Positions 31,444 through 58,785 of a DNA stretch of 64,000 nt are shown piece after piece. The position numbers were made by a program, and so were the translations under genes. Where the stretch lies: assembly GCA_964347865.1 (NCBI GenBank), contig CAYGAC010000044.1, forward strand, positions 105,206-169,205, in the 5' to 3' direction. The DNA is from an uncultured Thermoplasmatales archaeon (GTDB lineage: Archaea > Thermoplasmatota > E2 > DHVEG-1). Below the pieces are notes generated by a model, which saw only the letters and a list, made by a program, of their open reading frames with translations, made no database searches and had not been told where the DNA came from. Position 1 is the stretch's first letter. Every line of letters begins with the position of its first letter.

Positions 31444-32460
31444 CTATTTTTCTCTTTGTATCGAATAATCAGCTAACCTCTCCAAAATATTTTTAGCTTC
31501 TGAATCTTCAAGAAGCTCTAAAGCATCTTTTGCTTTTTTATTATAATTTAGTGCAGTATTCCGTGCATAATCTATAGATCCCATCTCTTTAAAAAGAGTG
31601 AAAATTCGTGTTATATCATCATCCGAGGCTTTTTTATTTCCAAACACTTCATCCAATAGTTTCCTGTTTTCGGCAGTTGCATTTTGTAACGTATGGACTG
31701 CTATGAGGGTTTTTTTACCATTTCTAATATCATTTCCAATATCTTTTCCTAAAGTTTTTTCATCACTACTGATATCAAGATAATCATCCCATATTTGAAA
31801 TGATAAACCTAATTGCAATCCATATTCTGTTAAAGCATTGATCTCTCTCTGGTTTCCCCCACCAATTATTGCCCCTCCTCTTGCTGAAAGTTCGAATAAT
31901 ACTGCTGTTTTTTTCTGAACCATATTAAAATATTCTTCTTCTGAAATCATTTTTCTTTTTTCAAATTGTATATCAAGTTGTTGTCCTTCACATATATCTA
32001 ATACGCATTTAACAAGGCTATAATCAAGCTCTTTAAACATGGATAAATCTACTGACAAGTCATGAATAGCCTCAAAAGATTTGGCAAAAAGAAAATCTCC
32101 AGTGAGTATTGCTGTAGGTTCTCCAAATTTAACATGAACTGTTGGTAGATTTCTTCTCATATCTGATTTATCCATTATGTCATCATGTACCAACGTAAAA
32201 TTATGAATTATTTCTAACGCTGATGCGAATGGTAGGACATTTTCTACATCTCCAGAGACACTTTCACATGCAAGCATAGCTATACATGGTCTAAGTCTCT
32301 TTCCACTACCTAATGCAATATGTCTAGCTGCATCATAAAGCTCTGCTGGTATGCCCTCTGGCAGATATTTTTTCCAATGCTTGTTAAAAGCCATACATCT
32401 TTTTTCTATTTCAGCATTAAAGTCCATACTCCACTTCCGCATCAGATAATTTTTCAACAT
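31444..32460 (-). CDS. idsA: geranylgeranyl diphosphate synthase (trans-polyprenyl synthase)
   Basis: FARM LVHDDIMD and SARM QIWDDYLD motifs. The true start is probably an internal Met (MDFNAEIEK), which removes the 44-nt overlap with fni. Confidence 0.75.
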   Translation of the reverse strand: MLKNYLMRKWSMDFNAEIEKRCMAFNKHWKKYLPEGIPAELYDAARHIALGSGKRLRPCIAMLACESVSGDVENVLPFASALEIIHNFTLVHDDIMDKSDMRRNLPTVHVKFGEPTAILTGDFLFAKSFEAIHDLSVDLSMFKELDYSLVKCVLDICEGQQLDIQFEKRKMISEEEYFNMVQKKTAVLFELSARGGAIIGGGNQREINALTEYGLQLGLSFQIWDDYLDISSDEKTLGKDIGNDIRNGKKTLIAVHTLQNATAENRKLLDEVFGNKKASDDDITRIFTLFKEMGSIDYARNTALNYNKKAKDALELLEDSEAKNILERLADYSIQREK

Positions 32461-33457
32461 TTTCCGCTCCTATTAAAAACATAGCAGTTCTCAACTCTTT
32501 AATGATTACTTCTAGTTCAAAAATTGTAGATTGTTGATCTTGGGTTGCTGGTTTTAAAAGAGAATGAGCAATACCTGCGGCATTTGCTCCTAATGCTAGG
32601 GCTTTTGTTACATCCAGTCCATTTCGAATACCGCCAGTTGCAATAATTGGTAGCTCCCAATTAGTAGCTTCTCCAACCTCAAGGATTGATGTTGGTGTTG
32701 GTATTCCCCAATCCCAAAAGGTTTGTCCTTCTCTCATATTATGCTTATCTCCTTTAATTTTAGCACGATAATATTCTACTGCTGAGAAAGAAGTACCACC
32801 GGCACCACCTACATCAATACCTGCAATATTTGTTTTTTTAAGGCGTTCAGCGACGTTATACGAAATACCTGCTCCACTCTCTTTTACTAATATTGGTATA
32901 CCTAATTCTTTCGAAAGCATACCTATAGTTTTTAAACAATCCTTCGCATGAGCTTCTCCTTCAGGTTGAATGACCTCCTGTAAAAAATTTAGACAGACTG
33001 CAAGAATATCTGCATTTATCATATCAACTATTTTACCAGCATTTTCTAAAATTTTTTTCTTATCCCATAACACTATCTGAGATGCTCCAATGTTTGCGAT
33101 TTTTAAAGGAATATTATAATTGTTTATTATGCTATAAGTATCTTTTAATTCATAATTTTCAAGAGCGGCTCTTTGGGAACCAACTCCCATTGCAATGTGA
33201 AATTTTTCTGCAGCGGCAGCAAGATTTTCATTAATTTTTTTACCCTCTGAATAACCACCCGTCATTGCAGATATTACCAAGGGTGCTCCCAGCTTTTTTC
33301 CAAATAATTCAATTGATAAATCAATTTCATCCTCGTTTATTTCAGGTAATGCATTATGAATGAGTATAACATCATCCCAGTAATTATGATGCGCGGATAC
33401 ATTTTCTTTTAATGATATATCGATATGCTCACGTTTCCTCTCTTCTGTTTGGTTCAT
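32417..33457 (-). CDS. fni: isopentenyl-diphosphate delta-isomerase, type 2 (FMN-dependent)
   Basis: N-terminal RKREHIDISL. FMN/TIM-barrel motifs IIATGGIRNGLD and GGAGGTSFSAVE. Confidence 0.8.
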   Translation of the reverse strand: MNQTEERKREHIDISLKENVSAHHNYWDDVILIHNALPEINEDEIDLSIELFGKKLGAPLVISAMTGGYSEGKKINENLAAAAEKFHIAMGVGSQRAALENYELKDTYSIINNYNIPLKIANIGASQIVLWDKKKILENAGKIVDMINADILAVCLNFLQEVIQPEGEAHAKDCLKTIGMLSKELGIPILVKESGAGISYNVAERLKKTNIAGIDVGGAGGTSFSAVEYYRAKIKGDKHNMREGQTFWDWGIPTPTSILEVGEATNWELPIIATGGIRNGLDVTKALALGANAAGIAHSLLKPATQDQQSTIFELEVIIKELRTAMFLIGAENVEKLSDAEVEYGL

Positions 33458-34236
33458 TTCTTTTCACCTAAAATTAACGTGTGTTTTGTTCCTTTTCCAA
33501 TCAATGTATAATATAATCTGTTATCTATATTGCCATTCAACATAACAACATCAATTCCTAAATTAGCAATGTTTTTAATAGTTGCAATTTTACCTTCCAT
33601 TCCTTTGGTTACATCAGCATGACTATCAGAAGAGGTAATTAGGTTTTCTAATTCATCTATTGTAGATTTTTCAATAAATTCTGCATTTTTATTTATCTTT
33701 GGATTTGAGTTATATAATCCATCTTCATCTAAAACGAAGATTACTTTTTCAGGTTTAAAATGTTCTGCAAGCATTTGTATCAAAAGATCACCTGAACAGA
33801 TAGAAAAACCTAGTTTCTCATCTAATACTACATCTCCAAAGGTTACTGGAGTGAAACCCTTTTCTAGATATTCTCTGAATACATAATAATCCATCTTCAC
33901 TGGTTTATGATTATTGAGTTTTAATATAACATGTGGAGGTATTGATACAGCTATAATACCATTTTCATGTAATGAGTTTAGTACCAATGAATTTAATTTT
34001 TGAACCATAGCATGGGTAAGTGAAAAACCTTTTAGCTGATCTTCGTTTTTGTGTCCCTCGTTCAACATATACTCTTTTGCAAGAATATGTCCGAATGATC
34101 CTGCTCCATGAACTAATATAACTTCCTTATTTGCCTTATTTACTTCGAGAGATAGTTTATCCATTATTTCTTTCTTGAACTCGGATTTCTTCGATTTGTC
34201 CGTTATTACACTACCACCAAGTTTTACAACAAACAT
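33454..34236 (-). CDS. ipk: isopentenyl phosphate kinase
   Basis: Amino-acid-kinase fold. VKLGGSVITDK and ILVHGAGSFGH (IPK: VHGGGSFGH). Confidence 0.7.
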   Translation of the reverse strand: MFVVKLGGSVITDKSKKSEFKKEIMDKLSLEVNKANKEVILVHGAGSFGHILAKEYMLNEGHKNEDQLKGFSLTHAMVQKLNSLVLNSLHENGIIAVSIPPHVILKLNNHKPVKMDYYVFREYLEKGFTPVTFGDVVLDEKLGFSICSGDLLIQMLAEHFKPEKVIFVLDEDGLYNSNPKINKNAEFIEKSTIDELENLITSSDSHADVTKGMEGKIATIKNIANLGIDVVMLNGNIDNRLYYTLIGKGTKHTLILGEKK

Positions 34237-34285
34237 CTTCTCCTACATTCAACTAGCAATAAAAAAGGATTTTGATATAGTATTA

Positions 34286-37200
34286 TTATTTTTCCTCTTT
34301 ATTCATTGCTTTTTTCTTTAAAACAGCAATAGCACCTATAATGATAATTAATATGATTAATACCAGTAATAACCAAGATATTCTTTCTGTAAAGGTGATT
34401 TGGACTATTTTGTGTGGATAATTAGTCGCTCCAAAGGGCATATGGCCATCAAGTTCAATATCAGCATCATATCTTAATGTTTGTGGTTTTTCCCAAGTAT
34501 TGGCTTTACTGAAATCGTTATTTGGTACATACATTCTTAGATTGGGATCCCCAAAGTAAACAACATTTTCAGCTGAATCCCACCACCACTGTGGAGGGCC
34601 TCCGTTGTCTCCAATATATAAGATGCCAGTATGCTTCATCCCCTTAACGTATGCCTCACCTACCGTATTACCCAAAATAATATCTCTAGGTATCGATTGG
34701 CGCCATATTGCTCCATACCACGAGGTCGGCCAGGGATCTTGGACTTGAAATACAGAACCATGTCGTATCATCATCAGATGTAAGTAAGTAGTTGATGTTT
34801 GACAAATACTTGTAATGAAACCTACTGAATGAAGATTATCCATTAAAATTTCCATGTCTGATGCATTTTTATCAGCAAGGGGGTATTTTGAAAAGGCAAT
34901 TGTTCCAGTTAGACCATCGTATAAATTTTCAGTGTTTAATCTGAAGGGTATTATTCTAATAATATCTAATAATGTGTTAATTCTTTCTCTAATCGGTTTT
35001 CGAGCAAGTACATAGTCCATTCCAGTTGCCGGGAAAAATAATCCATTAATATTTGTAAAGGGCAAAATTCCTTCGAAGTCCATAGACATAGTATCTGGTT
35101 CTTTTGTTGAATCAAGAAGCCAATCATATCCTCTCCAGGGATTATCTTCTTTTGTTGCCCCGGCAAATATTCCTAAAATTCTGTTTTTCTTAAATCCTTC
35201 CTTAGGGTCCCAAAAAAGAGTAGAGCCACATTGATACTGCATACCATGTGATGCATGTATCCAAAGTATAACCCCCTGATTTAGATTATCCATAACTGAT
35301 TCAAGTTTTGTAGAAAAAACAGCATCAAAACCTCCTTTATTAAGATAAAAAGGGATGACTTCTGATTCTGTCATATCTGGAAAATAACTGCCATCTTGAT
35401 TGTAATACTTTTTATTTATTCCTTGATCAATAGAATTCATGGTAGTATCCACTCCAGGAGTTAAACCGTCAGCACATTGATACTTTGAACCATAATACTT
35501 ACTAGCTCTTTCATTAAATCGATATTTATGAGTTACAAATGAACACAAAACTGGGTACTCAAAATTTTCTTTTTTTGATTCACGCTGTATGCCAAGTGTA
35601 TTAAAAAGTGGATTTCTCAATAATCCTCTAATACCGGATCTAACACTGATACTTCCATTAATTAGCTCTACTGTATGATCAGACCCAACTGCTGGATTTA
35701 CAAAAATTAATCCCGGGTAAAAAACGGAACGGCTGATCCAATATGCTGCATCAATTGGGGTACCCCATATCCTACCAGTTTTTGCTTCTCCTACAAAAAC
35801 ACGATCCCATGGTATACCAATATCATATTGACCTGCTATTGTAATAATTGTTTCTCTTCCTTCCTTATCGAAACCATAATCCTTTAAAAAATTATATGCT
35901 CTTCTTCCAGTCAATACCATATCAGCAACAGAAGGAATATGAGCGTAACGCCCAGCTACATAATTTCTCCAAAATTCAGTATGTCATACCACCGCTGATG
36001 AAAGCTCTGGATGCGTATCAACAATTAAGATTGGGCAACAATGGTGAGCAGCTAGATATGCAGCAGGTCCTAAAAATAGTGCAGCTTCAGTTTCACCTGA
36101 AGGTTGTAATTCTCCCATGTACCAATAAGTCCATGGATCAATAGTTGCAAAAATTAAATCATTACTTTCATTAATAGAATCGTCAACGTTCATTTTTTTT
36201 ATCGAGCGGATATAATCATAAATTTGTCTTAAATCAACAAAATGCTCTGTTATTTTAAATGAATTTTTTATCTTTTTAATTACTTGAGTTGATAATTCTT
36301 TTCCTATGTCTATTAAATGGATATTTTTGATTCCTAATTTTAACAATGCTTGTTCAGTTATTTTTGGAAAATTATCATGGGAAATATAAAGCAGCGGAGC
36401 ATTCATGGTGCTAGCAAGTATTGCTCCTTCAGTTGCTGAAGTAAGTGCATTTCCTTCGGTTTCGGAAAATTTCTGTTTCCATTCATATTCAATTTCAAAA
36501 TCAATAGAACTTCTTACTTCATCCAAAGTAAAAACGGATATAGAATAATTTTCTCCTGGATTACATTCTCCAAGTTGATTTATGTGCATTTCTTGCATCT
36601 TCGTCCTGCTTTTATTTATTGAGGTAAAAATTACTTCTCCGCATGGACCAATTAGTGAAAAACCGAGGCATACATCAGGATTATCCCACATTAGTTTAAA
36701 GGTGGCATCCCTGCAACCAAATGGTGGGGTATCTGGTATAATAAATTCTACACCAGAATATAAAGTGACATCTACATGATAATTTACCTTTGGACTTAGT
36801 GCTTTCAATATTGATCCTTGGACAACAAATATTCCTCCCAATCTACTTTTTCTTGGAGCTTCACCTTCTGTTGGAAAATCTGTTATGCCAATTCTCCATG
36901 AACCAGAATTATAAACATGACCATACGTATATTCATGACCTTTTGGAGAGTATATATTCCAATTAGCGATTGCTGCAGATTGCATCCATTCTCCTTTCTC
37001 TTGACAGAATAATTGTATATCCGGATCTCCTGTGGGAATCATTACTAAATCTCCAAAAAATATTCCATCCCACCACACTTCTGCCTTGATATATTTATAT
37101 TTACTATCTACAGTAAAATCATGATAAATAGGATTTAAAGAATTTGTTTGTTTTAACTCAAAGGTGGGAAGATCGTATACATTTTCCGTTGGGAATTTTC

Positions 37201-37795
37201 CTTTTAAAGTATTTGAAAAAATATAATCAGGTTCTTCAAATTCTTCTTCAATTACTGCAATGACTGCGTTATCTGAATATGACCAATCATGGAGAGCGAT
37301 TTAAGAGGCAATCTCAAAGGGAGTTTTACCTTCAATTGTAATATATTCTGCGGCTGACCATTCTTTTAATTTTTCGTTTTCAACATTTATACAAATTATT
37401 TGATCTAGATTACCACCACAGAAAGAAGACCAATCCACCATAAAATAATCAATTCCAAGATTTGCATTCAATATCTTCTTCTTTTGTTCTTTGAATGTCA
37501 CGTCTTCTTGATAAAATAAAAAAGTGCTTGATAACAATTGGTTTCCATCATTAAAAACAGTAGTCGGAACAGATGCAAGGTATGCATAATCATCTAAATA
37601 GTTTTTATCTTCATAGTTCACAAACGTTGCTTTTTTTAAAGGAACTACTGATTTATAGGAAACACCTTTGGAGTAACCTTCTGTACGAATACTTTCTCGT
37701 AGGGTACTGCTTGCAGGAATAACTAAACTTGCAAGGATGATAAATAAAATAAAAATAATAAAAAATATATTAAGCTTTGAAATCACCGTATTCAC
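34286..37795 (-). pseudogene. large exported, C-terminally membrane-anchored protein (about 1170 codons) interrupted by two in-frame stops
   Basis: ORFs 37301..37795, 35984..37078 and 34286..35920 share one frame, checked codon by codon. An in-frame TAA sits at 37301-37303 and an in-frame TGA at 35984-35986. There are no frameshifts. Signal peptide at the N-terminus, TM anchor at the C-terminus. Confidence 0.5.
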
Positions 37796-37913
37796 AATGT
37801 ATTCCTCCCGAATATTTAGCAGATAATTAAATAAAAATATAAATTTATTATAAATAATTTTTTATGATAAAATATCATCAGATAATAAGAGAATAAAATA
37901 ACGTCTTAGAAGA

Positions 37914-38153
37914 TTATTTTCGTTTTGAAAATAGTGGTTTATCTTTATTTTGTTCGTGTATTAACCAAAGAGCTATAGGCATACCAAATCCAGGATCTTG
38001 CATGACACTTCTTGACCATTCCATCATGTCATTTTCTGATGTATTTTTAGAGCAATCTTCACAAACAAAAACTTTATTATCAAATACAAATCCTGATTGA
38101 TGTTCGTGTAAATGAAATTTATTTCGGCATATTCCACAAATTTTTTCAGGCAT
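37914..38153 (-). CDS. small Zn-ribbon protein
   Basis: 79 aa. CGICRNK...H.HEH...CEDC cysteine/histidine pairs. Confidence 0.35.
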   Translation of the reverse strand: MPEKICGICRNKFHLHEHQSGFVFDNKVFVCEDCSKNTSENDMMEWSRSVMQDPGFGMPIALWLIHEQNKDKPLFSKRK

Positions 38154-38283
38154 ATAAACTCCTCGTTAACACGCTCTAAATATTGCTTATTTAAATCTTC
38201 AATGAATTTAGAGATTAAAATCTTTTGGATGAATAAAAAAAGAAAGAGAGGATGGGATGAATCTGAAAGTTTAATTGGCAGAA

Positions 38284-38309
38284 ATGCCAGCTTAGGAGGA
38301 GGCTGGCAT
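38284..38309. other. perfect 8-bp hairpin ATGCCAGC/GCTGGCAT with loop TTAGGAGGAG, followed by an ATG and an 11-codon ORF
   Basis: Seen directly in the sequence. The SD-like GGAGGAGG sits in the loop. Confidence 0.3.
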
Positions 38310-38484
38310 GTCCCCCGTATCTTACGTCTTATTGAATCCGTAAAGTCTTTTCTTGTTTATATATATGAGAAGGGGTTAACTGAAAGTATTTACTGGCATG
38401 GATTGCATATTATAGAATAAATTTAACAGATTTTAACCAAATAGAATTAATTTCTTAAAACTAAGAAATAACATATAGTTTATA

Positions 38485-40086
38485 TTAACTAATCAAAGAA
38501 AAGATGAATATTTGAATACCCTTAGCATAATCTATTTCGTATAATCCTTCATCACATTCTACTGTCACTGTTATAGCTATTGGTCCCAACCCAAGTATCA
38601 ATCCATAATTTGCATAAATTTTACAATTAATAGCAAGAGTTTCTACTGTACCGGTCGAATTTTTATTTATTTTACTCAAGATTCCACCAATTACAGTCAT
38701 TGTCCATTTTACATTTGTCGCTTCAGCATTTCCAATATTTTCAATAGTTGCAATAATACCAACTGGACGACCTTTTATCGATATTATATCAATTTCTGGT
38801 TTTGTTTCATCATATGCTTGTCCGAAGTAGATATCTCTATCATCACCTCGGTTGTCTTCCCAAACTGCATATATTCCATCTTTTCCTTTTCCAAGATCAT
38901 GAGAACCAAATTCAGAAACTGCTTGACTGTCTTGCACTTTTTGTTCTTCTATCCAATTAGCACCGCCATTTTCAGATTTTTTACAATAAACAGCACCATC
39001 TTTCACATAAGAACAAACAAATACATTTCCATCAAATGTAACCTTTACCTCTGGAAATTTGGCTGAATTAACTACTGTATTTTTTTGAATAGATGAAAAT
39101 CCGTTATCTGAATAGAAACAAACAATGTTATCTTCTTCCTCGCAAACAATGATAATAGCATTATTATGTGCTTCAATCGATGGATTTGAGAGGTTCGTAA
39201 TACCATCACCAATAGACCAACTTCCAATATGTGGATGATGATTTTGGGCATCCCATTCTCCAAAATTATCCTTTCTCACCAGTAGGTTTGCATCCACTTC
39301 ATTGTCCCACACAGCATAAGACATTTCTGTTACTTCATTAATTGCTATATCTGAATTAAGAAAATTATCACTCCATATATATGTCAACACACCACCATAT
39401 TCCCCATTCTCATAATAAATACATGGACAGGTAGGTGAATACCAGGGAGATAATATATCACATACAAAGGATATACCTCCAAAATTCCATGATTCACCTA
39501 CTCTAGTATAACATGAAATAGCAGGAATCAAAAAATTCTCACATTCACGAAAAGGATACCATTCATCCAAAATTCCCCTATAATCTATATAATGAGGTAG
39601 ATCATCTGAATATATAAGCCATATCTCATTATCCCATTGTCCATAATCTTTTAAAACTGTAGCGTAGAAACCATTATCATTTGAATCTGCATCCGGAAAT
39701 TCACATCCTACTGATTCAGAGAAATATCCAATTTCTTCCCAACTCACGCCATTATCTAGTGAACACCAAAAATCTGGATAATAGTCAACACCATCCCATG
39801 TACGCTCAAAACATGTAAAAAATCTACCTCTATTGTCTCCAGCTAGGATTGGGTGAAAATCATCATATTCCGAATCATTTATAATAGTGCTATCGCTTTG
39901 AGTGCCAGAAGTTTTTAAAGCTTTCTCTAAAGTATCTGATCTTGATTTCTCACAATACAAAAAATATACCTTTGTATCAATTTCTCTAGTCTGTAATGAG
40001 GTTTCTTCTATATCATTTGAAACTCCTACGAAAGATGATAATAAAAAAATCAAAAGTACAATTATCGGAATGAAGTTTATTTTCAA
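38485..40086 (-). CDS. secreted Asp-box/BNR-repeat protein (sialidase-like beta-propeller) with a C-terminal Ig/CARDB-like domain
   Basis: Signal peptide. Asp-box motifs SLDNGVSW and SENGGANW. Trp/Asp-rich. C-terminal beta-sandwich-like region. Confidence 0.45.
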   Translation of the reverse strand: MKINFIPIIVLLIFLLSSFVGVSNDIEETSLQTREIDTKVYFLYCEKSRSDTLEKALKTSGTQSDSTIINDSEYDDFHPILAGDNRGRFFTCFERTWDGVDYYPDFWCSLDNGVSWEEIGYFSESVGCEFPDADSNDNGFYATVLKDYGQWDNEIWLIYSDDLPHYIDYRGILDEWYPFRECENFLIPAISCYTRVGESWNFGGISFVCDILSPWYSPTCPCIYYENGEYGGVLTYIWSDNFLNSDIAINEVTEMSYAVWDNEVDANLLVRKDNFGEWDAQNHHPHIGSWSIGDGITNLSNPSIEAHNNAIIIVCEEEDNIVCFYSDNGFSSIQKNTVVNSAKFPEVKVTFDGNVFVCSYVKDGAVYCKKSENGGANWIEEQKVQDSQAVSEFGSHDLGKGKDGIYAVWEDNRGDDRDIYFGQAYDETKPEIDIISIKGRPVGIIATIENIGNAEATNVKWTMTVIGGILSKINKNSTGTVETLAINCKIYANYGLILGLGPIAITVTVECDEGLYEIDYAKGIQIFIFSLIS

Positions 40087-43957: not shown

Positions 43958-45034
43958 GTGATCGAGAAGAACGTTCGTTGTCCAAAGTGTCATGAAATTG
44001 TTTCAATTTCTGGTGAACCTGGAGTTATTCTTTCAGTTATTTGCCCAAAATGTGGCAGTCATGGAAAAGTCACTTTTAAAAAACCAAGCATGTATCGAGA
44101 CTATGCAATAGAAGTATCAAATCTAAAAAAGGTTTATAGTGACCTAATTGCAGTTAATAATATATCATTTTCAGTAAAAAAAGGTGAAATCTTTGCGTTT
44201 CTTGGTCCTAATGGTGCTGGTAAGACAACAACTGTAGAAATTATTGAATCAATACGTGAACCCACTGCAGGTAATATAAAGATATTTGGTAAAGATATAA
44301 AGACATCATTTGATCAAGTTAAAGAAATAATTGGTGTTCTTCCCCAAGAATTTTATTCTTTTGAAAGACTTACTGTTCGTGAGACACTTATATATTTTTC
44401 ATCCCTCTATATGAAGCATGCAGATATTGATGAAATAATTAAATCCATGGATCTTAAATCTAGCGAAAAAATGTTATATAAAAATTTATCAGGTGGATTG
44501 AAACAAAGAGTTGGTGTGGCTATTGCACTTGTAAATGATCCTGATATTGTATTTCTTGATGAGCCCACCACAGGTCTAGATCCAAAAGCTCGTAGAGAAG
44601 TTTGGAAGGTTATTGCGGGATTAAGAAATCGAGGAAAAACTGTATTTCTTACCACACATTACATGGAAGAAGCAGAGTATCTTGCAGATCATATTGGAAT
44701 AATTCACAAAGGGATAATAATAGCTGAGGGATCTTTGGAAGAACTTGTTAATAAATATGGAAATGAAAGCATTTTAAGGATAAAAAATTGCAAATCTAAA
44801 GATATTATTGATGTTTTAAAAGGTCATAGATTTGAAGTTAAAACTGAAGGAAATGGTGATATATCTATAAAAATAGAGTATAAAGAACGTATTGTTGAGA
44901 TTCTATCTATTTTAAAACATGAATGCATAGAATATGATACCATCGATATTCAACGATCTAACCTTGAAGAGATATTTTTAAAACTTACTGGTGCAAAACT
45001 ATCGGAGGGAGGGAATGAATCTAAAATTCATTAA
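43958..45034 (+). CDS. ABC transporter ATP-binding protein (ABC-2 type) with an N-terminal Zn-ribbon extension
   Basis: Walker A GPNGAGKTTT. Signature LSGGLKQR. Walker B IVFLDEPTTGLD. N-terminal CPKCH...CPKCG. Confidence 0.85.
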   Translation: MIEKNVRCPKCHEIVSISGEPGVILSVICPKCGSHGKVTFKKPSMYRDYAIEVSNLKKVYSDLIAVNNISFSVKKGEIFAFLGPNGAGKTTTVEIIESIREPTAGNIKIFGKDIKTSFDQVKEIIGVLPQEFYSFERLTVRETLIYFSSLYMKHADIDEIIKSMDLKSSEKMLYKNLSGGLKQRVGVAIALVNDPDIVFLDEPTTGLDPKARREVWKVIAGLRNRGKTVFLTTHYMEEAEYLADHIGIIHKGIIIAEGSLEELVNKYGNESILRIKNCKSKDIIDVLKGHRFEVKTEGNGDISIKIEYKERIVEILSILKHECIEYDTIDIQRSNLEEIFLKLTGAKLSEGGNESKIH

Positions 45035-46126
45035 AACGGATTTAATATTAGGGATTAGATCATGGCTTAGAAGTATTGGAACTGTCTTTTGGACCATATT
45101 ATTTCCAGTTCTTCTGATAATGATGTTTGGTGCAATATTTTCTGGTGTAGATGATGTTGAATATGATTTAATTATCCAAAATCTTGATGAAACTGATTAT
45201 TCAAAAGAGTTTGTTAATTTGTTAAAAAATAATATAACTATTTTTAAAATTGACGAAATAAGTAAAAATAAGGATTTAGCACAATACATGCGTGATAATG
45301 ATAATCTGTCGCTTTACAAATACCAAATGATTTTGGAATAGTTTTGCAACAATATTTTATTGATAAAAATGTGACCGTTAATCTAACATTCTATTTTGAT
45401 CCCACTGATACCAGTACTGTTCCTATTATACGAAGCATTATAACTGGTGTACTTAATGAATTTAACGATGCAATCACGGGAAGTAATAGTTTTATTGGAT
45501 TAGATGAAAAAAGTACAATTGGTGAAGATTATGATTTTATCGATTTCTTTGTACCAGGAATGATTGGTTTTACTATTATGACATCTATGATTTATGGAAG
45601 TATTGAACGAAATACGAAATATCGAAAAGATGGGATTCTAAGGAAACTTTTAACTATGCCGGTGACAAGGGTAGAATGGATTATCTCAAAGATGCTTTTC
45701 ATGCTTTTTTTATCCTTCATATCAACCTTAATAATTATTTTAGTTGGCATTTTAGTTTGGGGTCTTCATATTCATATAAATATCTTTTTCTTTATAATTA
45801 TTATATCTACAAGCTTTATGTTTTCAGGACTAGGAATGATTATTGGTAGGTTTGTAAAGGAGGAAGAAACTGCTGATATGGCTGGGGGTGCTATCACTTT
45901 TCCTATGATGTTTCTTGCTGGAACATTTTTTCCACTCGATCAAATGCCAACATTTTTACAATCATTTGCACAAATTCTACCATTGTATTATGTGAATGAA
46001 GGATTAAGAAATGCAATGATTTATGCTGATTTAGAAAAAACCCTTTACTTCACAGCTTTTGTTGTAACATTTGCCTTAATATTTTTTATTGTGGGTGTTT
46101 TTCTTACAAAATGGAGAGAAGACTGA
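45015..46126 (+). pseudogene. ABC-2 family permease split by a frameshift near 45330
   Basis: ORFs 44991..45341 and 45344..46126 lie in different frames. The first carries TM1 plus the start of the extracellular loop. The second continues the loop and carries five TMs. The downstream frame is open back to about 45310. Confidence 0.5.
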
Positions 46127-46131
46127 TTTAT

Positions 46132-47079
46132 TCAAGGTAATTCAAAATGGGTGTTTTTAAAAAAAGAAAAGTCTAGATTGCTCCAATCATCGAAATCGCC
46201 TTTACCATGGTTGCCATCGGAAAAATCAATAATTGTGTATGTATATTGATAGTTCATACAGCTCTTATAGTTTTTATATTTCCACCATTGCACTGAAAAT
46301 AATCTTGTTGCAATCATATTATCATTTCCCCCATGATCATCAACATTTAATCCAAAAGTATGTCCCAACTCATGTAATGCGCCTCCAATAATATATCGCT
46401 CTCTACTATATATTGATGGATTTGATTGGATCATTTCTGCTGAAATTTGGAAAGAATCAAGATGATTCCATCCAATAAATGCAAAGCCTGGACCTGCTCC
46501 ATAATCGCACACTAAACAATAATGAAAAATTCCTTTTCTTGGATTATTGAGATCATTATGTAAAAAGTATTCCCAGTAAAGATCGCGAAGATCTGCATAT
46601 GAAAAATTCGAAATATATGGAATCTCCTCTCCACCCTCAAGATTACTCCTATCAACGTGGAGTGAAATATTATGTTTTGTAAAAATATCAATAATTTTAT
46701 TCACATAATTCTCTGAAGGTTTATTAGAGGGATTATCTGGATTTTTAACTTCCACCCAATCAAATTCTAAAAATACATCTTTAAAATATGGATTTGAATC
46801 CCATTTATCGGTGTAACATTCTTCGATATTATTCAATCCATCTGCATCAGGATCGAGGATTTTATGATCATTCCAAGAGTTTTTATCATATCCCCATTTT
46901 TCCTCCCACCAATCTGGAACATAATCATTATCACTATCTATTCCAGGAAGTTCAATTTCAACATATCGAGAATGATTAATTTCAATGTTTGCTAGTTCAT
47001 AATCTATTTCCCAATCAGTGCCTGCATTCCCAACTTTATGAAAGAGCCAGGGAAAAAAAGTTATTCGACTAAATTTCAT
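46132..47079 (-). CDS. zinc metalloprotease (HExxH zincin) with Asp-rich Ca-binding repeats
   Basis: GGALHELGHTFGLNVDDH. Upstream TSP3/dockerin-like DxDxDG motifs (DSDNDYVPD, DPDADGLNNIEE). Confidence 0.5.
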   Translation of the reverse strand: MKFSRITFFPWLFHKVGNAGTDWEIDYELANIEINHSRYVEIELPGIDSDNDYVPDWWEEKWGYDKNSWNDHKILDPDADGLNNIEECYTDKWDSNPYFKDVFLEFDWVEVKNPDNPSNKPSENYVNKIIDIFTKHNISLHVDRSNLEGGEEIPYISNFSYADLRDLYWEYFLHNDLNNPRKGIFHYCLVCDYGAGPGFAFIGWNHLDSFQISAEMIQSNPSIYSRERYIIGGALHELGHTFGLNVDDHGGNDNMIATRLFSVQWWKYKNYKSCMNYQYTYTIIDFSDGNHGKGDFDDWSNLDFSFFKNTHFELP

Positions 47080-47210
47080 AATTATTCTATCTTTTGATTG
47101 CCGTTCAAATAATGCTGGTCCAAAACGCGAACCCCACCAGTTATACCTGGCATTACATTGTGAATATTCAGAGTATAATCCGCAAATAGAATTATGAATA
47201 TTGTTGTTTA

Positions 47211-48194
47211 TTAATTGAAAATTGCTTTTTTTGATTGTATTCCATATCTTAAATTTTCAAAAAGTTCACATTTTTCAATAATCACATTTTTCGAATCTTT
47301 ATTTAGATTAACACCAAAGTGTGTATTCCAAAATAAGTTACAATTCAAAATGTAGATATTTGTACTGTTGGAGATTTTTGTACCGACACCATTGTGATAA
47401 ATATTACAATTTGAAATATAGATATCACCACAATTACTCATGAAAAAACCACCTTGATTGTCATTATTGTTGTAAGCAGCACATTTTATTGATTCAATAT
47501 TTGTGGAGTCGCCGAAAAAGAATGCTATACCGTTTGTGTGTGCATAACAACCAATTATTTTTATTGCATCAGAACTTTGAATATTTAGTCCAAGTCCATT
47601 ATTACAAAAATAACAATCTCTTATCTGATTGTCTTGGGATGATTGTATATAGATTCCTTCTCCATTATTGTAAAAAGTGCAGTTATTTATTTCATTATAA
47701 GAACTCCCATTAATATAAATACCAGTTCTTGTCCTATAAAATATACATTTTGCTATTTGATTAAGTTCAGAGTCGATTATTATACCCGCGTTATGCATAT
47801 ATCCCCCAGAATTCATTATTGTAAAATTAATTAAAAATGTAAAATCAGCGGTTATACGCACAACAAATTCTTTATACATTCCATCAATAATTGTTGAGCT
47901 TTTATTTTCACCAATAATTGTAAGAGGTTTGTAAACTTCAATATTTTCATAATATATTCCTTCGAAAACATAGATAATATCTCTCTCAGTTGCATTTTCA
48001 ATTGCATCTTGAATATATCGAAAAGGAAATTCTATGGTTCCATTCCAAGGTCCCTCTTTATTATCATCATCAACGTAAATATTTCCTTTATTTGTATTCT
48101 GCAATTCAACATATCCATCTACACTATCAATAATTAAATAATTAGAGAGAATAAATAAGATTGTTATTAACAATGATACGAATTTTTTTTTCAT
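47211..48194 (-). CDS. secreted right-handed parallel beta-helix (PbH1-repeat, NosD/pectate-lyase-like) protein
   Basis: Signal peptide. Repeated NxxGI(Y)IxxSxxNxIxxCxFxNN units. Paralogous to 57633..58785. Confidence 0.55.
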   Translation of the reverse strand: MKKKFVSLLITILFILSNYLIIDSVDGYVELQNTNKGNIYVDDDNKEGPWNGTIEFPFRYIQDAIENATERDIIYVFEGIYYENIEVYKPLTIIGENKSSTIIDGMYKEFVVRITADFTFLINFTIMNSGGYMHNAGIIIDSELNQIAKCIFYRTRTGIYINGSSYNEINNCTFYNNGEGIYIQSSQDNQIRDCYFCNNGLGLNIQSSDAIKIIGCYAHTNGIAFFFGDSTNIESIKCAAYNNNDNQGGFFMSNCGDIYISNCNIYHNGVGTKISNSTNIYILNCNLFWNTHFGVNLNKDSKNVIIEKCELFENLRYGIQSKKAIFN

Positions 48195-55916: not shown

Positions 55917-57533
55917 TCATGTACTATATAACATCAAAATATCTAGGATCTTTGGTAGTATTTGAAAATTCTTCAATTGCCTTAAGAATAACATATTATA
56001 ACTTTTAACATATGGATAAGGTTCAATAATAGAACCATTTAGTGAGGCAATTGCTACATTTCCTGCTTTGTCAAAATGATAGAACCAAAACGTATGTTTC
56101 CTAAAAGCTTCAGACCATTGAAGTGTAAAAACATAGTCTGGACCTGAACCATTTATGATTTGATGTAATCCATTGTTGAGATACATCTCAACTCGATCCA
56201 TTCCCGATGTTGCATCAGTTGCTGAGGTAGTGAAATCTACATACCAGAATCCTCCCTTCTTATAAGTATCCCATTGAATCTCAGCTATTACCGGTGGTGT
56301 TAAATCTAAATCAAAGAAGAATTCGTTGGTTGATTCTACATTTCCGACATTGTCAACCGCAAGGTATTGAATTATAAGACTTTCAACTAATTCAAATATT
56401 ACTGTCACGTAGTCTCCTAGAATAAAATGTGGACCACCATTTATTCCGTATTGTATCTCCTTTACATCAGATAAAAAATCAATTGCCACAATTGTAATAT
56501 TGATGTAGCTTCCGATACCATAGTTTATCCATTCAGACATGGGGGGATCAAAAAAATGTATGGTAATCGGAGGAGTGTCATCAACTCCAATAAACATAGA
56601 TTTTATATTGTTATTAGGATACTCATCAGTATCAAGTGACACATTAATCTCCAACAGATAAACACTTTCATAAGCAAAATTCCAGTTGTTAAAATAAACA
56701 GTAGTTTCATTGCCAGAATTAAGTTGATTTATGGTGACATTATCATGATAAACTATAGTTTCGTTGTAAAAAATCTTAGCTGTTACAGAAAGATTTGTTT
56801 CATTATATGAACCATAGTTTTTGACAATAGCTTCAACTGCTTGAACTCCAGATTGTAAAAATAAAATATCTTGGTCCTGTGGTTTAATTCCTGCCTTTAT
56901 ACACCAGTTTCGATCTATACCAAGGTCAGTAAGTTCTTTCCAAGATTCCGAAATATTGATCCAATCGCCTTTCCCTTTAATAGCTGATTTTTCATCATTA
57001 CCAACAGGTAATTCAAATATTGAACAATTAGCCTCTACTGAGATCCATACATCTTGTTCTCCATCGAGTGTGATTGGGTTTGACAAGTTTATTTTAAACC
57101 ATCCTTCACCTGTGACATTAAAAGGTTCTAAAGTAATTAATGGCCCAGGTGATGTTGGTTTTCCAGGACCGTAGATTTTAATAAAACCAGTATGTGTCTC
57201 TGAATAGTTAGTATCATGGAAGAATTTTACTGTGGAGAGATTCCAACCCCCGTAATCACCTATTTCCGATTTTGTAATTCTTATTGCTGCTTCAAATTGA
57301 TTTTCATATGTAATACTCCAATTACGCGGATGATAATGACGGTGAAAAAAAACCCAAATATTATCTCCAAAATAACCAGAAGGTTTAGTAATATTTTTGA
57401 TACCAACATCATGATTATATGACATATAATCTAATGCGAAATTATTGTAACTCAACATCATTCCTGTACAAGGAATAACACTTAGTCCTATACACAACAG
57501 CATTATAACAAAGGTTATGATTTTTTTTATCAT
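55917..57533 (-). CDS. secreted protein with CARDB/Ig-like beta-sandwich domains
   Basis: Signal peptide. N-glycosylation-sequon-rich (NxS/T). Repeated beta-sandwich-like segments. Confidence 0.35.
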   Translation of the reverse strand: MIKKIITFVIMLLCIGLSVIPCTGMMLSYNNFALDYMSYNHDVGIKNITKPSGYFGDNIWVFFHRHYHPRNWSITYENQFEAAIRITKSEIGDYGGWNLSTVKFFHDTNYSETHTGFIKIYGPGKPTSPGPLITLEPFNVTGEGWFKINLSNPITLDGEQDVWISVEANCSIFELPVGNDEKSAIKGKGDWINISESWKELTDLGIDRNWCIKAGIKPQDQDILFLQSGVQAVEAIVKNYGSYNETNLSVTAKIFYNETIVYHDNVTINQLNSGNETTVYFNNWNFAYESVYLLEINVSLDTDEYPNNNIKSMFIGVDDTPPITIHFFDPPMSEWINYGIGSYINITIVAIDFLSDVKEIQYGINGGPHFILGDYVTVIFELVESLIIQYLAVDNVGNVESTNEFFFDLDLTPPVIAEIQWDTYKKGGFWYVDFTTSATDATSGMDRVEMYLNNGLHQIINGSGPDYVFTLQWSEAFRKHTFWFYHFDKAGNVAIASLNGSIIEPYPYVKSYNMLFLRQLKNFQILPKILDILMLYST

Positions 57534-57632: not shown

Positions 57633-58785
57633 ATGAAAAGAATCCTTGCTATCGGCGTAATCCTTCTGTTTATTGGAATGAGTCTATCGTCATCCACTGG
57701 GTTTAATGTTGTAGAGCAGTCTAATACTACATCTTCTAATGGTAAAACGCTCTATGTTGGTGGTTCAGGTCCAGGGAATTATTCCAAGATACAGGATGCG
57801 ATAGACAATGCATCTTATTGGGATACGGTGTTTGTGTATAATGGAACGTATTATGAGAATATTGAAGTGTATAAATCAATAAACCTTGTTGGAGAAAATA
57901 ATAATAAAACGATTATTGATGGCAGTGATGGTGGACCTGTTGTTAAACTATCATTTGACAAGGTAAATATCAGTGGATACTATCCAGCAATCTTTTTTAG
58001 ATGCAACTTATGGTACAGGGATTGATATTTACTCAAATTATAACACCGTCTTCGGTAATATCATCTCAGAAAATAATGCTGGCATATATTTAGGAGCAGC
58101 TCATCACAACATCATCTCAGGTAATACCATATGCTCAAACAACCACGAAGGTATTCTTGTAGGGAATTCCAATAACAACATTATCACAGGTAACAAAATA
58201 TACTCAAATAAATATTGGGGCATTACCGTTGGATATGGTAGTAAAAACAATACTATAATTGATAACCACATCTCCAACAGCAGTTGTGGTATATATCTAT
58301 TTTCTACATTATATAATAATATTAAGAGTAACACCATTCAACAAAATGGTCATAACGTAGATTATCCCAATTCTGCTCTTTATCTACGCTACGCTAAATA
58401 TAATTACATATCAAAAAATATCATTTGTAATAATAACATTGGAATTTTGCTGGTGGAGAAATGTAAATTCAACATAATTTCTCGTAATCATATTAATAAT
58501 AGTAATTCTAGTATTGATTACGGTTCTGGGTTTATGTTTATTTGGGAATCAATATTCAATATTATTAAAGAAAATAATTTCATTGAAAATAACCATAAAC
58601 CTACCTTTTATTCTGCATTAATGACCTGTTTTATTGCTGTTCTTTGGCGTAATAATTATTGGGATGACTGGAGAGGATATGGACCTTATGTTATAACAGA
58701 AAAAATGTTGATTGGATCCATTCCAATATCTTGGTTTAATTTCGATTGGCATCCTGCATCAGAACCCTATGACATAGAGGTGTGA
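57633..58785 (+). pseudogene. secreted parallel beta-helix protein split by a +1 frameshift near 57975 (paralogue of 47211..48194)
   Basis: ORFs 57633..58025 and 57973..58785 are in different frames. The join KVNISGY|TIQQSF aligns with the paralogue's FLINFTIMNS. PbH1 repeats continue throughout. Confidence 0.5.

What the first reader, a model, noticed from the sequence alone, without database searches (positions are those of the whole stretch)
34286..37795. 3.5-kb exported-protein gene interrupted by two in-frame stops (TAA and TGA) with the frame preserved
Codon-by-codon reading shows that ORFs 37301..37795, 35984..37078 and 34286..35920 are one frame. The only breaks are a TAA at 37301-37303 and a TGA at 35984-35986. 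74 sense codons bridge the first gap and 21 bridge the second. The product would be about 1170 aa, with an N-terminal signal peptide and a C-terminal TM anchor. Two nonsense codons and zero indels over 3.5 kb is an odd decay pattern. The alternatives are a recent pseudogene, base-call errors, or programmed read-through or selenocysteine at the TGA. TAA, TGA and TAG all end other genes here, so a recoded genetic code is unlikely.
Basis: seen in the sequence. Interest (0 to 1): 0.55.

Follow-up and report, generated by a model that had tools for sequence, protein, structure and literature searches.

The report
Recently inactivated archaeal surface-protein gene
This is an ordinary, recently killed gene: two single-letter mutations put stop signals into a large cell-surface (probably protease) gene of an uncultured sediment archaeon, while its closest relatives keep the same gene intact at the same spot.

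Summary
Window 34286..37795 (minus strand) is one 1169-codon frame. It is broken only by TAA (37301-37303, codon 165) and TGA (35984-35986, codon 604), with no indels.

Homologues are single 1130-1235 aa proteins of uncultured Thermoplasmatota. The nearest is P0124 (1169 aa, 92.6% identical, same gene neighbourhood). It has Gln and Trp at the two sites. The next relatives, for which DNA is held, use CAA/GAT and TGG there. Both stops are therefore single G:C>A:T transitions, specific to this lineage.

Three assemblies of Illumina sediment data carry the same bases, so base-call error is unlikely. There is no SECIS element or stable hairpin. The residue opposite TGA is Trp, not Cys. All three stop codons end validated genes nearby, so recoding is not supported.

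Over most of its history the gene was under strong purifying selection (dN/dS 0.08). However, this lineage's replacements fall at more conserved sites than its sister's (P91T, L92F and G895D hit invariant columns; p=0.016).

Three other exported or membrane protein genes in the same 64 kb carry 1-nt frameshifts. The "no indels" pattern is therefore a small-sample accident.

Verdict: a recent, ordinary pseudogene. Low interest.

The parts
34286..37795 (-). Whole interrupted gene: 1169 codons plus terminal TAA. It is the positional orthologue of intact ~1150-1170 aa Thermoplasmatota surface-protein genes.
37301..37303 (-). In-frame TAA (codon 165). It aligns to Gln in P0124 and to CAA in L015/L016 (GAT in L013), so the inferred change is CAA>TAA (C>T).
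35984..35986 (-). In-frame TGA (codon 604). It aligns to Trp in 24 of 28 homologues (Tyr in 4) and to TGG in L013/L015/L016, so the inferred change is TGG>TGA (G>A).
37793..37809 (-). GTG start codon (37793-37795), where P0124 has Met, preceded by GGGAGG (37804-37809) 8 nt upstream.
37706..37795 (-). N-terminal hydrophobic signal peptide/anchor (residues 1-30). Only the first 164-codon fragment would carry it.
   Evidence: helix 2-28
37520..37525 (-). Codons 91-92: Pro>Thr and Leu>Phe, at columns invariant in the 28 other homologues compared and in P0124. Both are derived in this lineage.
35111..35113 (-). Codon 895: Gly>Asp (GGT>GAT) at a column invariant in the 28 other homologues compared. 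P0124 and P0125 both keep Gly.
34802..35248 (-). Putative clan-CD-like catalytic region. The invariant His850-Gly851 (35243-35248) and the invariant Cys998 (34802-34804) each follow a hydrophobic stretch. N1002T, near the Cys, is derived here.
   Evidence: weak, sub-threshold Peptidase_C25 match at residues 992-1088
34316..34390 (-). C-terminal transmembrane anchor followed by a Lys-rich tail.
   Evidence: helix 1135-1168

Best explanation
The locus is a recently inactivated gene, that is, a pseudogene or a high-frequency loss-of-function allele. The intact gene is a conserved, syntenic gene of an uncultured marine-sediment Thermoplasmatota archaeon. It encodes a ~1170 aa exported protein anchored by a C-terminal TM helix, with CWB2-like and beta-sandwich domains and a C-terminal domain with faint similarity to C25 (gingipain-type) cysteine peptidases.

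Two independent G:C>A:T transitions created the stops: CAA(Gln165)>TAA and TGG(Trp604)>TGA. Translation should end at codon 165. That would release at most a 164-residue N-terminal fragment with the signal peptide, and no functional full-length protein.

Shown:
- The stops and the preserved frame.
- The ancestral codons in relatives.
- Intact orthologues in the same neighbourhood.
- Agreement between independent assemblers.
- The standard genetic code.
- The lack of recoding signals.
- A modest shift of this lineage's replacements toward conserved sites.

Inferred:
- That no full-length product is made.
- That inactivation is recent, roughly the last tenth of the branch since the split from the 92%-nt relative.
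- That the second stop accrued neutrally after the first.
For: 1. Homologues are single polypeptides of 1130-1235 aa. The closest, P0124, is 1169 aa and 92.6% identical, with no indel and with Gln165 and Trp604.

2. In relatives with DNA, the homologous codons are CAA/CAA/GAT and TGG/TGG/TGG. Trp is present in 24/28 homologues at the TGA column.

3. Synteny is conserved around the intact genes of L013/L026, L015 and the P0124 contig, and it matches the window. The order is Exo_endo_phos, a 79-aa ORF, this gene, then AA_kinase, FMN_dh, polyprenyl_synt and GluRS.

4. The stops are reproduced at 100% identity in other assemblies. Logan contigs of run ERR2564001 cover them (L001 covers TGA, L003 covers TAA). 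So does the CLC pooled assembly GCA_012974985.1, where L004 carries both. The data are Illumina HiSeq 4000 (PMC8319310).

5. Constraint appears relaxed. Derived replacements in the window lineage fall at more conserved columns than those in the P0124 lineage (mean conservation 0.52 vs 0.38, one-sided MWU p=0.016). P91T, L92F and G895D hit invariant columns, against none for P0124. In the C-terminal 362 aa, G895D, N1002T and Y1095F are unique to the window, while P0124 and P0125 have no change at conserved sites.

6. Inactivation is recent. dN/dS against L024 is 0.076 at dS 0.19. Polarised counts are 8N/15S for the window and 5N/20S for L024.

7. Stops are easy to make here. 5.5% of all single-nt changes and 7.9% of G:C>A:T transitions give a stop. 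The gene has 29 TGG and 27 CAA codons.

8. Context: three other genes in the window carry 1-nt frameshifts. An independent orthologue (L019) carries its own in-frame TAA at Gln132.
Against: - Overall amino-acid change is not accelerated: 45 vs 38 derived changes (p=0.51). The N/S difference against L024 is not significant (p=0.33). The relaxed-constraint signal therefore rests on where the changes fall, not on how many there are.
- The catalytic-like His-Gly and Cys, the start codon and the Shine-Dalgarno sequence are all intact.
- I could not examine read-level allele frequencies or expression data.
- The three assemblies probably share the same samples, so they are independent as assemblers but not as DNA.
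Confidence: 0.88

Rival explanations
1. Sequencing or assembly error: the real genome has CAA and TGG, and the gene is intact.
For: The source is a metagenome assembly. Logan contigs in this region are short, and one breaks inside the gene at 36498-36520. The CLC scaffold has an N-gap at 35057-35193. Both features suggest modest coverage or strain heterogeneity.
Against: Three different assemblers give identical bases at both sites: the window contig, Logan on a single run, and the CLC pooled assembly. Illumina HiSeq consensus substitution errors are rare (platform from PMC8319310). From my own knowledge, not checked here, Logan unitigs require each k-mer at least twice. Two errors that both happen to create stops in one gene, plus non-homopolymer 1-nt deletions in other genes that Logan also reproduces, are not an error signature.
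Confidence: 0.04
2. Programmed recoding keeps the gene functional. TGA would be read as selenocysteine or as Trp, and TAA would be read through as Gln by near-cognate tRNAs.
For: Near-cognate decoding of UGA by tRNA-Trp and of UAA by tRNA-Gln would restore exactly the ancestral residues. The frame, start signals and catalytic-like residues are intact. UGA followed by C is a comparatively leaky context in other organisms (my knowledge, not tested for archaea).
Against: - The stops are absent from the closest orthologues, so they are not conserved features.
- Trp or Tyr, never Cys, aligns to TGA.
- There is no Rfam match above threshold in 33000-39000 (one sub-threshold hit, most likely chance: SAM-II, E=0.64, 22.8 bits vs 44 gathering, at 33553-33606 inside the AA_kinase gene).
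- Folds downstream of each stop and across the 49-nt 3' spacer and the adjoining start of the next gene are no more stable than shuffles, with z between -0.7 and +1.1.
- Two different stop codons would need two mechanisms. UAA is normally the tightest terminator, so the combined yield would be negligible.
- TAA and TGA end 16 and 6 validated genes here, including the gene immediately downstream.
- There is no tRNA gene in the window.
- Radical changes at invariant residues argue against maintained function.
Confidence: 0.03
3. The gene is genuinely split. The three ORFs, or the 164-aa N-terminal fragment alone, are separately expressed functional products.
For: ORF callers list three ORFs with start codons (GTG 37078, ATG 35920).
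Against: - No homologue is split at these points. More than 100 are single chains.
- The internal starts lie 74 and 21 codons downstream of the stops, inside conserved domains.
- Only the first fragment has a signal peptide, so the later fragments of an extracellular protein would stay in the cytoplasm.
- The stops fall within well-conserved sequence blocks (IAS-Q-IALHDWSYSD and LSSAVV-W-HNEFW).
Confidence: 0.03
4. Nested variant of the main explanation: the loss of function was selected, not merely tolerated. Possible drivers are shedding a costly secreted 'public-good' enzyme or escaping a virus that uses a surface protein as receptor.
For: All four disrupted genes in the window encode exported or membrane proteins, while housekeeping genes are intact. 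An independent orthologue (L019) carries its own nonsense codon. L024 keeps only the last ~375 codons. The family often occurs as 2-3 tandem paralogues (L006, L011, L020), which implies turnover.
Against: Accessory surface genes are simply the ones whose loss is tolerated. Four of about 55-60 genes is at the high end of ordinary pseudogene loads. One of ~24 other copies with a stop is not above background. L024 may be a chimeric scaffold. No population-frequency data are available.
Confidence: 0.15

Closest known systems
Ordinary prokaryotic pseudogene created by nonsense mutations
   Same: Premature in-frame stops in an otherwise homologous frame. Intact orthologues at the same locus. The stops are lineage-specific, each one point change from the ancestral codon, and in the G:C>A:T direction expected in an AT-rich genome. 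There are early signs of relaxed constraint.
   Different: Nothing essential. It is very young: dN/dS is still 0.08 against a 92%-nt relative, there are no indels, and the start signals are intact.
Archaeal selenoprotein genes (UGA = Sec, SECIS in the 3' UTR)
   Same: An in-frame TGA in an archaeal gene.
   Different: Homologues have Trp/Tyr, not Cys/Sec. No SECIS-like structure was found. The 3' spacer is only 49 nt. The stop is not conserved. A second in-frame stop (TAA) cannot be Sec.
Peptidase family C25 (gingipain-like, clan CD) extracellular peptidases reported for Thermoprofundales/MBG-D (PMC6461988)
   Same: A large exported protein from sediment Thermoplasmatota. Weak Pfam PF01364 similarity over the last ~100 residues of the domain. 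An invariant His-Gly and an invariant Cys each follow a hydrophobic stretch, as in clan CD.
   Different: The Pfam score is below the gathering threshold (19.2 vs 23), and only 3 of 31 family members reach E<=0.01. The profile of the C-terminal domain finds no solved structure. The AlphaFold model of that domain is unreliable. Anchoring is by a C-terminal TM helix rather than a bacterial Por/T9SS signal.
CWB2 cell-wall-binding domains (Clostridioides difficile Cwp6/Cwp8)
   Same: The family profile matches CWB2 repeats of 5j72/5j6q over residues ~450-520. One source annotates a homologue as 'cell wall-binding repeat-containing protein'.
   Different: The matches are marginal (E 3.5e-4 and 1.3e-3; 8/31 members sub-threshold in Pfam). 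Archaea lack the bacterial wall polymer that these domains bind.

Membership tests
Nonsense-type pseudogene | Premature in-frame stop(s) inside a frame that is homologous over its full length to intact proteins | tested here: met
Nonsense-type pseudogene | Intact orthologue at the same genomic position in close relatives, with sense codons at the stop sites | tested here: met
   P0124 (92.6% id) has Gln165/Trp604. L015/L016 have CAA and TGG. Synteny is shared.
Nonsense-type pseudogene | Evidence of relaxed selective constraint | tested here: inconclusive
   The position of replacements is shifted to conserved columns (p=0.016; 3 invariant columns hit vs 0). The total rate (45 vs 38) and the N/S ratio (8/15 vs 5/20) are not significantly raised.
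Nonsense-type pseudogene | No full-length product made | not testable with these tools
   Needs proteomics or ribosome profiling of the sediment population.
Archaeal selenoprotein gene | UGA aligns with Cys or Sec in homologues | tested here: not met
   Trp 24/28 and Tyr 4/28
Archaeal selenoprotein gene | SECIS hairpin in the untranslated region | tested here: not met
   No Rfam match above threshold in 33000-39000 (one chance-level hit: SAM-II, E=0.64, inside the AA_kinase gene). The 3' spacer is 49 nt. The folded 34200-34290 stretch (spacer plus gene flanks) scores z=0.03.
Archaeal selenoprotein gene | Sec machinery (tRNA-Sec, SelB, PSTK, SepSecS, SPS) in the genome | not testable with these tools
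   Only 64 kb is available. There is no tRNA in the window.
Programmed stop-codon read-through | The stop codon is conserved at the same position in orthologues | tested here: not met
Programmed stop-codon read-through | Stimulatory downstream RNA structure | tested here: not met
   z-scores 0.68 and 1.10 for the 83 nt after each stop
Reassigned genetic code (TGA=Trp and/or TAA=Gln) | The codon no longer terminates genes and appears in-frame in many genes | tested here: not met
   TAA ends 16 and TGA ends 6 Pfam-annotated genes. Apart from pairs of adjacent same-frame genes, where the stop ends the upstream gene, no other pair of long same-frame stretches is joined by a single stop. The gene itself uses 29 TGG and 27 CAA codons.
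Peptidase family C25 (MEROPS C25 / Pfam PF01364) | Profile match above the curated threshold | tested here: not met
   19.2 bits vs a cutoff of 23, covering only profile positions 296-374. 3/31 members reach E<=0.01. One database homologue (P0079) has a precomputed PF01364 hit.
Peptidase family C25 (MEROPS C25 / Pfam PF01364) | Clan CD catalytic His(-Gly) and Cys, each after a hydrophobic strand | tested here: inconclusive
   His850-Gly851 (GVILWIHASHG) and Cys998 (GFITSICQ) are invariant. Equivalence to the gingipain dyad could not be shown.
Peptidase family C25 (MEROPS C25 / Pfam PF01364) | Caspase-like alpha/beta fold of the catalytic domain | tested here: inconclusive
   The AlphaFold model has pLDDT <50 over most of 645-1138. 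Foldseek hits concern only the beta-sandwich region and have low TM. The C-domain profile finds no PDB relative.

The most novel reading that the evidence does not exclude
The stops could be one visible piece of selected, recurrent shedding of surface and secreted functions in a sediment Thermoplasmatota population. The functions affected here are the C25-like anchored protein, two NosD-like beta-helix proteins and an ABC-2 exporter. The driver could be 'cheating' on public-good exoenzymes or escape from viruses that use these proteins as receptors. Independent nonsense or truncation events in orthologues from other sites (L019, L024) would fit this picture.
Probability: 0.12. Interest if true: 0.45.

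Novelty: already known. Interest (0 to 1): 0.1.

Why it matters
It matters mainly as a clean negative. An in-frame TGA plus TAA in an archaeal gene is not evidence of selenocysteine, read-through or a new code here. Annotation should mark 34286..37795 as one pseudogene rather than as three hypothetical proteins.

There is a minor positive value. The locus documents a large, widespread and still uncharacterised surface-protein family of sediment Thermoplasmatota, possibly the 'C25' exopeptidases invoked in protein degradation in marine sediments. It also shows that natural populations carry dead alleles of that family. This is relevant when metabolic potential is inferred from gene presence in MAGs.

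Tried and rejected
- Selenocysteine, SECIS or a read-through structure. The Rfam scan at E<=1 over 33000-39000 returned only one chance-level hit (SAM-II, E=0.64). Folding five segments around and after the stops and in the 3' spacer gave nothing beyond shuffles.
- Suppressor tRNA. No tRNA gene was found in the window.
- Recoded genetic code. Rejected on stop usage at validated gene ends and on the absence of other stop-bridged frames.
- Finding the source genome or a closer DNA relative. The genome-contig scan found nothing above 74% identity. The metagenome-contig scan found at best 81%. DNA for P0124 was not retrievable because the sample file is too large, so full-length dN/dS against the closest orthologue could not be computed. 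Only the C-terminal 375 codons could be compared, against L024.
- Structure-based family assignment. The AlphaFold2 model from 29 sequences is good for residues ~50-535 but poor for the C-terminal half. Foldseek against the PDB gave only low-TM jelly-roll-like matches. The profile of the C-terminal domain found nothing in the PDB. NCBIfam found nothing.
- Paralogue in the window as a functional backup. None was found.
- Look-up of the 130-aa fragment of the second beta-helix gene in other assemblies. It is not on record.
Full report
**1. The observation**

Translating the minus strand of 34200-37900 gives a single long frame. Codon bookkeeping shows 1169 codons from the GTG at 37795 to the terminal TAA at 34286-34288. 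There are exactly two internal stops:
- TAA at 37301-37303 (codon 165; context GCC TCT TAA ATC).
- TGA at 35984-35986 (codon 604; context GTG GTA TGA CAT).

The bridging stretches of 74 and 21 codons are as stated. The open stretches of 186, 438 and 565 codons lie side by side in a ~31% GC sequence. A GGGAGG lies 8 nt upstream of the start.

**2. What the frame encodes**

The concatenated translation matches 362 database proteins. The top 120 listed have reported E-values of 0.0, and nearly all are single chains of 1130-1235 aa. They come from uncultured Thermoplasmatota, including the MBG-D single-cell genome SCGC AB-539-N05, and from sediment metagenomes.

The family has no Pfam domain above threshold.
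- A weak Peptidase_C25 match covers residues 992-1088 (19.2 bits against a cutoff of 23). Only 3 of 31 members reach E<=0.01 for C25, and 8 of 31 for CWB2.
- A family profile hits CWB2 repeats of C. difficile Cwp6/Cwp8 at residues ~450-520.
- An invariant His850-Gly851 and an invariant Cys998 each follow a hydrophobic stretch, as in clan CD peptidases.
- A profile of the C-terminal domain finds no solved structure.
- The AlphaFold model is reliable only for residues ~50-535, where it shows alpha/beta modules flanking beta-sandwiches.
- Foldseek returns only low-TM jelly-roll-like matches.

I therefore describe the intact protein as a membrane-anchored, exported, possibly C25-like protein. This is in line with the many 'C25 extracellular peptidases' reported for Thermoprofundales (PMC6461988). 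I do not file it as a proven C25 member.

**3. What aligns to the stops**

At the TGA column, 24 of 28 homologues have Trp and 4 have Tyr. At the TAA column they have Gln (8), Glu (8), Lys (5), Asp (3) and others.

A cluster look-up of the C-terminal ORF uncovered two closer relatives hidden behind the fragment.
- P0124 is 1169 aa, exactly the same length. It is 92.6% identical with no indel, and it reads ...EIASQIALHD... and ...SAVVWHTEFW....
- P0125 is a 362-aa fragment, 97% identical to the C-terminal part of the window gene.

In the relatives whose DNA I could fetch, the homologous codons are CAA, CAA and GAT, and TGG, TGG and TGG. Both stops are therefore one-step G:C>A:T transitions, CAA>TAA and TGG>TGA. 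They are specific to the window's lineage.

**4. Orthology**

The intact genes of L013/L026, L015 and the P0124 contig sit in the same neighbourhood as the window gene. The order is Exo_endo_phos, a conserved 79-aa Cys-rich ORF, this gene, then AA_kinase, FMN_dh, polyprenyl synthase and GluRS. The window gene is thus the positional orthologue of intact genes, not a decaying spare copy. No paralogue exists in the window.

**5. Are the stops real?**

- The 544-aa and 164-aa fragments are found, at 100% nucleotide identity, on Logan contigs of run ERR2564001. L001 covers the TGA and L003 covers the TAA.
- The 164-aa and 364-aa fragments are on scaffold JABAOH010011423.1 of GCA_012974985.1. This scaffold carries both stops and differs from the window only by N-gaps.
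- That assembly is a CLC pooled assembly of Illumina HiSeq 4000 reads from Gulf of Khambhat/Arabian Sea sediment cores (PMC8319310).

Three assemblers therefore agree. The underlying samples are probably the same, so this excludes assembler or polishing artefacts and makes random read error very unlikely. It is not an independent biological replicate.

**6. Recoding tests**

- There is no Rfam match above threshold in 33000-39000 (one sub-threshold hit, most likely chance: SAM-II, E=0.64, 22.8 bits vs 44 gathering, at 33553-33606 inside the AA_kinase gene).
- The 83 nt after each stop, the stretches centred on each stop, and a 91-nt stretch spanning the 49-nt 3' spacer fold no better than shuffles, with z from -0.7 to +1.1.
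- There is no tRNA gene in the window.
- TAA, TGA and TAG end 16, 6 and 6 Pfam-annotated genes. The AA_kinase gene immediately downstream ends in TGA.
- The only other adjacent long same-frame stretches in the window are pairs of neighbouring genes; no other gene shows an internal stop of this kind.
- Trp rather than Cys lies opposite TGA, the stops are not conserved, and two different stop codons are involved.

Together these argue against selenocysteine, programmed read-through and code reassignment.

**7. Selection history**

Against L024, a 91.7%-nt relative that covers the last 375 codons, dN/dS is 0.076 at dS 0.19. This is as low as, or lower than, the flanking housekeeping genes. Polarised with three outgroups, the window branch has 8 nonsynonymous and 15 synonymous changes, against 5 and 20 on the L024 branch (p=0.33).

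Against P0124 over the full length, 45 changes are derived in the window lineage (including the two stops) and 38 in P0124 (p=0.51). The gene was therefore under purifying selection for most of its history.

The location of the changes differs, however.
- Window-derived replacements fall at more conserved columns (mean 0.52 vs 0.38, one-sided Mann-Whitney p=0.016).
- They include P91T, L92F and G895D at columns invariant in the 28 other homologues compared and in P0124, plus P347S, Y1095F and N1002T next to the putative catalytic Cys.
- P0124's changes at conserved columns are mostly conservative: V>I, D>E and L>M; the exception is G199E.

This is the signature expected of a short recent period without constraint.

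**8. Is 'two stops, no indel' odd?**

In the restored gene, 5.5% of all single-base changes and 7.9% of G:C>A:T transitions create a stop. The gene has 29 TGG and 27 CAA codons.

A rough inference runs as follows.
- There are about four excess nonsynonymous changes in 1125 nt.
- That implies roughly 0.5% neutral divergence, or about 17 neutral substitutions over 3.5 kb.
- About one further stop is then expected after the first.

The uncertainty is wide, but one extra stop is what would be expected. Zero indels is at most mildly lucky.

The same 64 kb contains three other genes broken by 1-nt deletions.
- The ABC-2 permease, at ~45300. Logan confirms it.
- The adjacent 687-aa NosD-like beta-helix protein, at an A-run near 47225. 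Logan confirms it.
- A beta-helix paralogue, at ~57980.

Housekeeping genes across the window look full-length.

**9. Related observations**

- An orthologue from another lineage (L019, 68% identical, same synteny) has its own in-frame TAA at a conserved Gln132.
- L024 retains only the last ~375 codons, next to an unrelated gene. This could be a real truncation or a chimeric scaffold.
- The family often occurs as two or three tandem paralogues (L006, L011, L020).

These points make loss of individual copies unsurprising. They leave open, at low probability, that such losses are selected.

**10. Verdict**

The locus is a young nonsense-type pseudogene, or a high-frequency null allele, of a conserved Thermoplasmatota surface-protein gene. 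It is ordinary in kind. It should be annotated as one pseudogene rather than as three hypothetical ORFs.

My confidence estimates are:
- About 0.88 for the pseudogene explanation.
- About 0.04 for error.
- About 0.03 for functional recoding.
- About 0.03 for a functional split or truncated product.

Noticed in passing
window 44991..46126 (+): The ABC-2 transporter permease is split into 116-aa and 260-aa ORFs by a 1-nt deletion near 45300-45305 (gataatgataa^tctgtcgct; not a homopolymer). The orthologue in L013/L026 is a single 335-aa protein. The same split appears in Logan contig ERR2564001_44338 (L025).
   Followed up: yes
window 46132..48194 (-): The NosD/Pel9A-like beta-helix protein is 687 aa in L026 (286..2349). 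In the window it is split into 327-aa and 315-aa ORFs by a 1-nt deletion at an A-run (~47225). The 327-aa fragment is also on Logan contig ERR2564001_323324 (L027). It lies next to the broken ABC-2 permease, so a whole exporter/beta-helix module may be decaying.
   Followed up: yes
window 57633..58785 (+): A second secreted beta-helix/NosD-like gene appears frameshifted near 57975-57985. It is split into a 130-aa N-terminal ORF with a signal peptide and a 270-aa ORF in another frame. The expected motif ISG[FY]TIQQS is broken. No other assembly could be checked, because the fragment is not on record.
   Followed up: partly
L019 5397..5399 (JGI Ga0114922_10005660): An orthologue from another lineage (68% identical, same synteny) has its own in-frame TAA at the conserved Gln132 (HLD*IVGINV). 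The frame is otherwise open to the contig end.
   Followed up: partly
L024 1..1892 (ENA ERZ23498360 scaffold_71505): This closest DNA relative (91.7% nt) holds only the last ~375 codons of the gene. At nt ~764 it joins an unrelated upstream gene, AIR-synthase/PurL-like by eye. This is either a real truncation in that strain or a chimeric scaffold.
   Followed up: partly
window 32447..33457 (-) vs L024: The FMN_dh (type-2 IPP isomerase-like) gene has dS 0.81 against L024. The two adjacent genes have dS 0.17-0.19. This sharp jump suggests a recombination boundary.
   Followed up: no
window 38485..40086 (-): A 533-aa ORF with a signal peptide and Asp-box/BNR-like motifs (SLDNGVSW, SENGGANW) has no Pfam or NCBIfam hit. 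It sits between Exo_endo_phos and the pseudogene, and is absent from that position in L013/L026 and L015. It is a lineage-specific insertion.
   Followed up: partly
window 37914..38153 (-): A 79-aa Cys-rich ORF (CGIC...CEDC) lies directly upstream of the surface-protein gene. It is conserved there in the window, L015, the P0124 contig and apparently L019. It has no family match.
   Followed up: no
window 36498..36520 and 35057..35193: The Logan assembly breaks inside the gene, with L001 and L003 overlapping by only 23 nt. The CLC scaffold has an N-gap inside the gene. Both hint at strain heterogeneity or low coverage at this locus.
   Followed up: no
L006, L011, L020: The family occurs as 2-3 tandem paralogues (35-56% identical to P0124) in several Thermoplasmatales MAG contigs, as in SCGC AB-539-N05 (P0099/P0102 on one contig).
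   Followed up: partly
window 55917..57533 (-): A 538-aa ORF has no Pfam hit but contains OmpL47-type beta-barrel domains (NCBIfam NF047446, E=4e-14). This domain was described from Leptospira, yet here it is in an archaeal genome.
   Followed up: no
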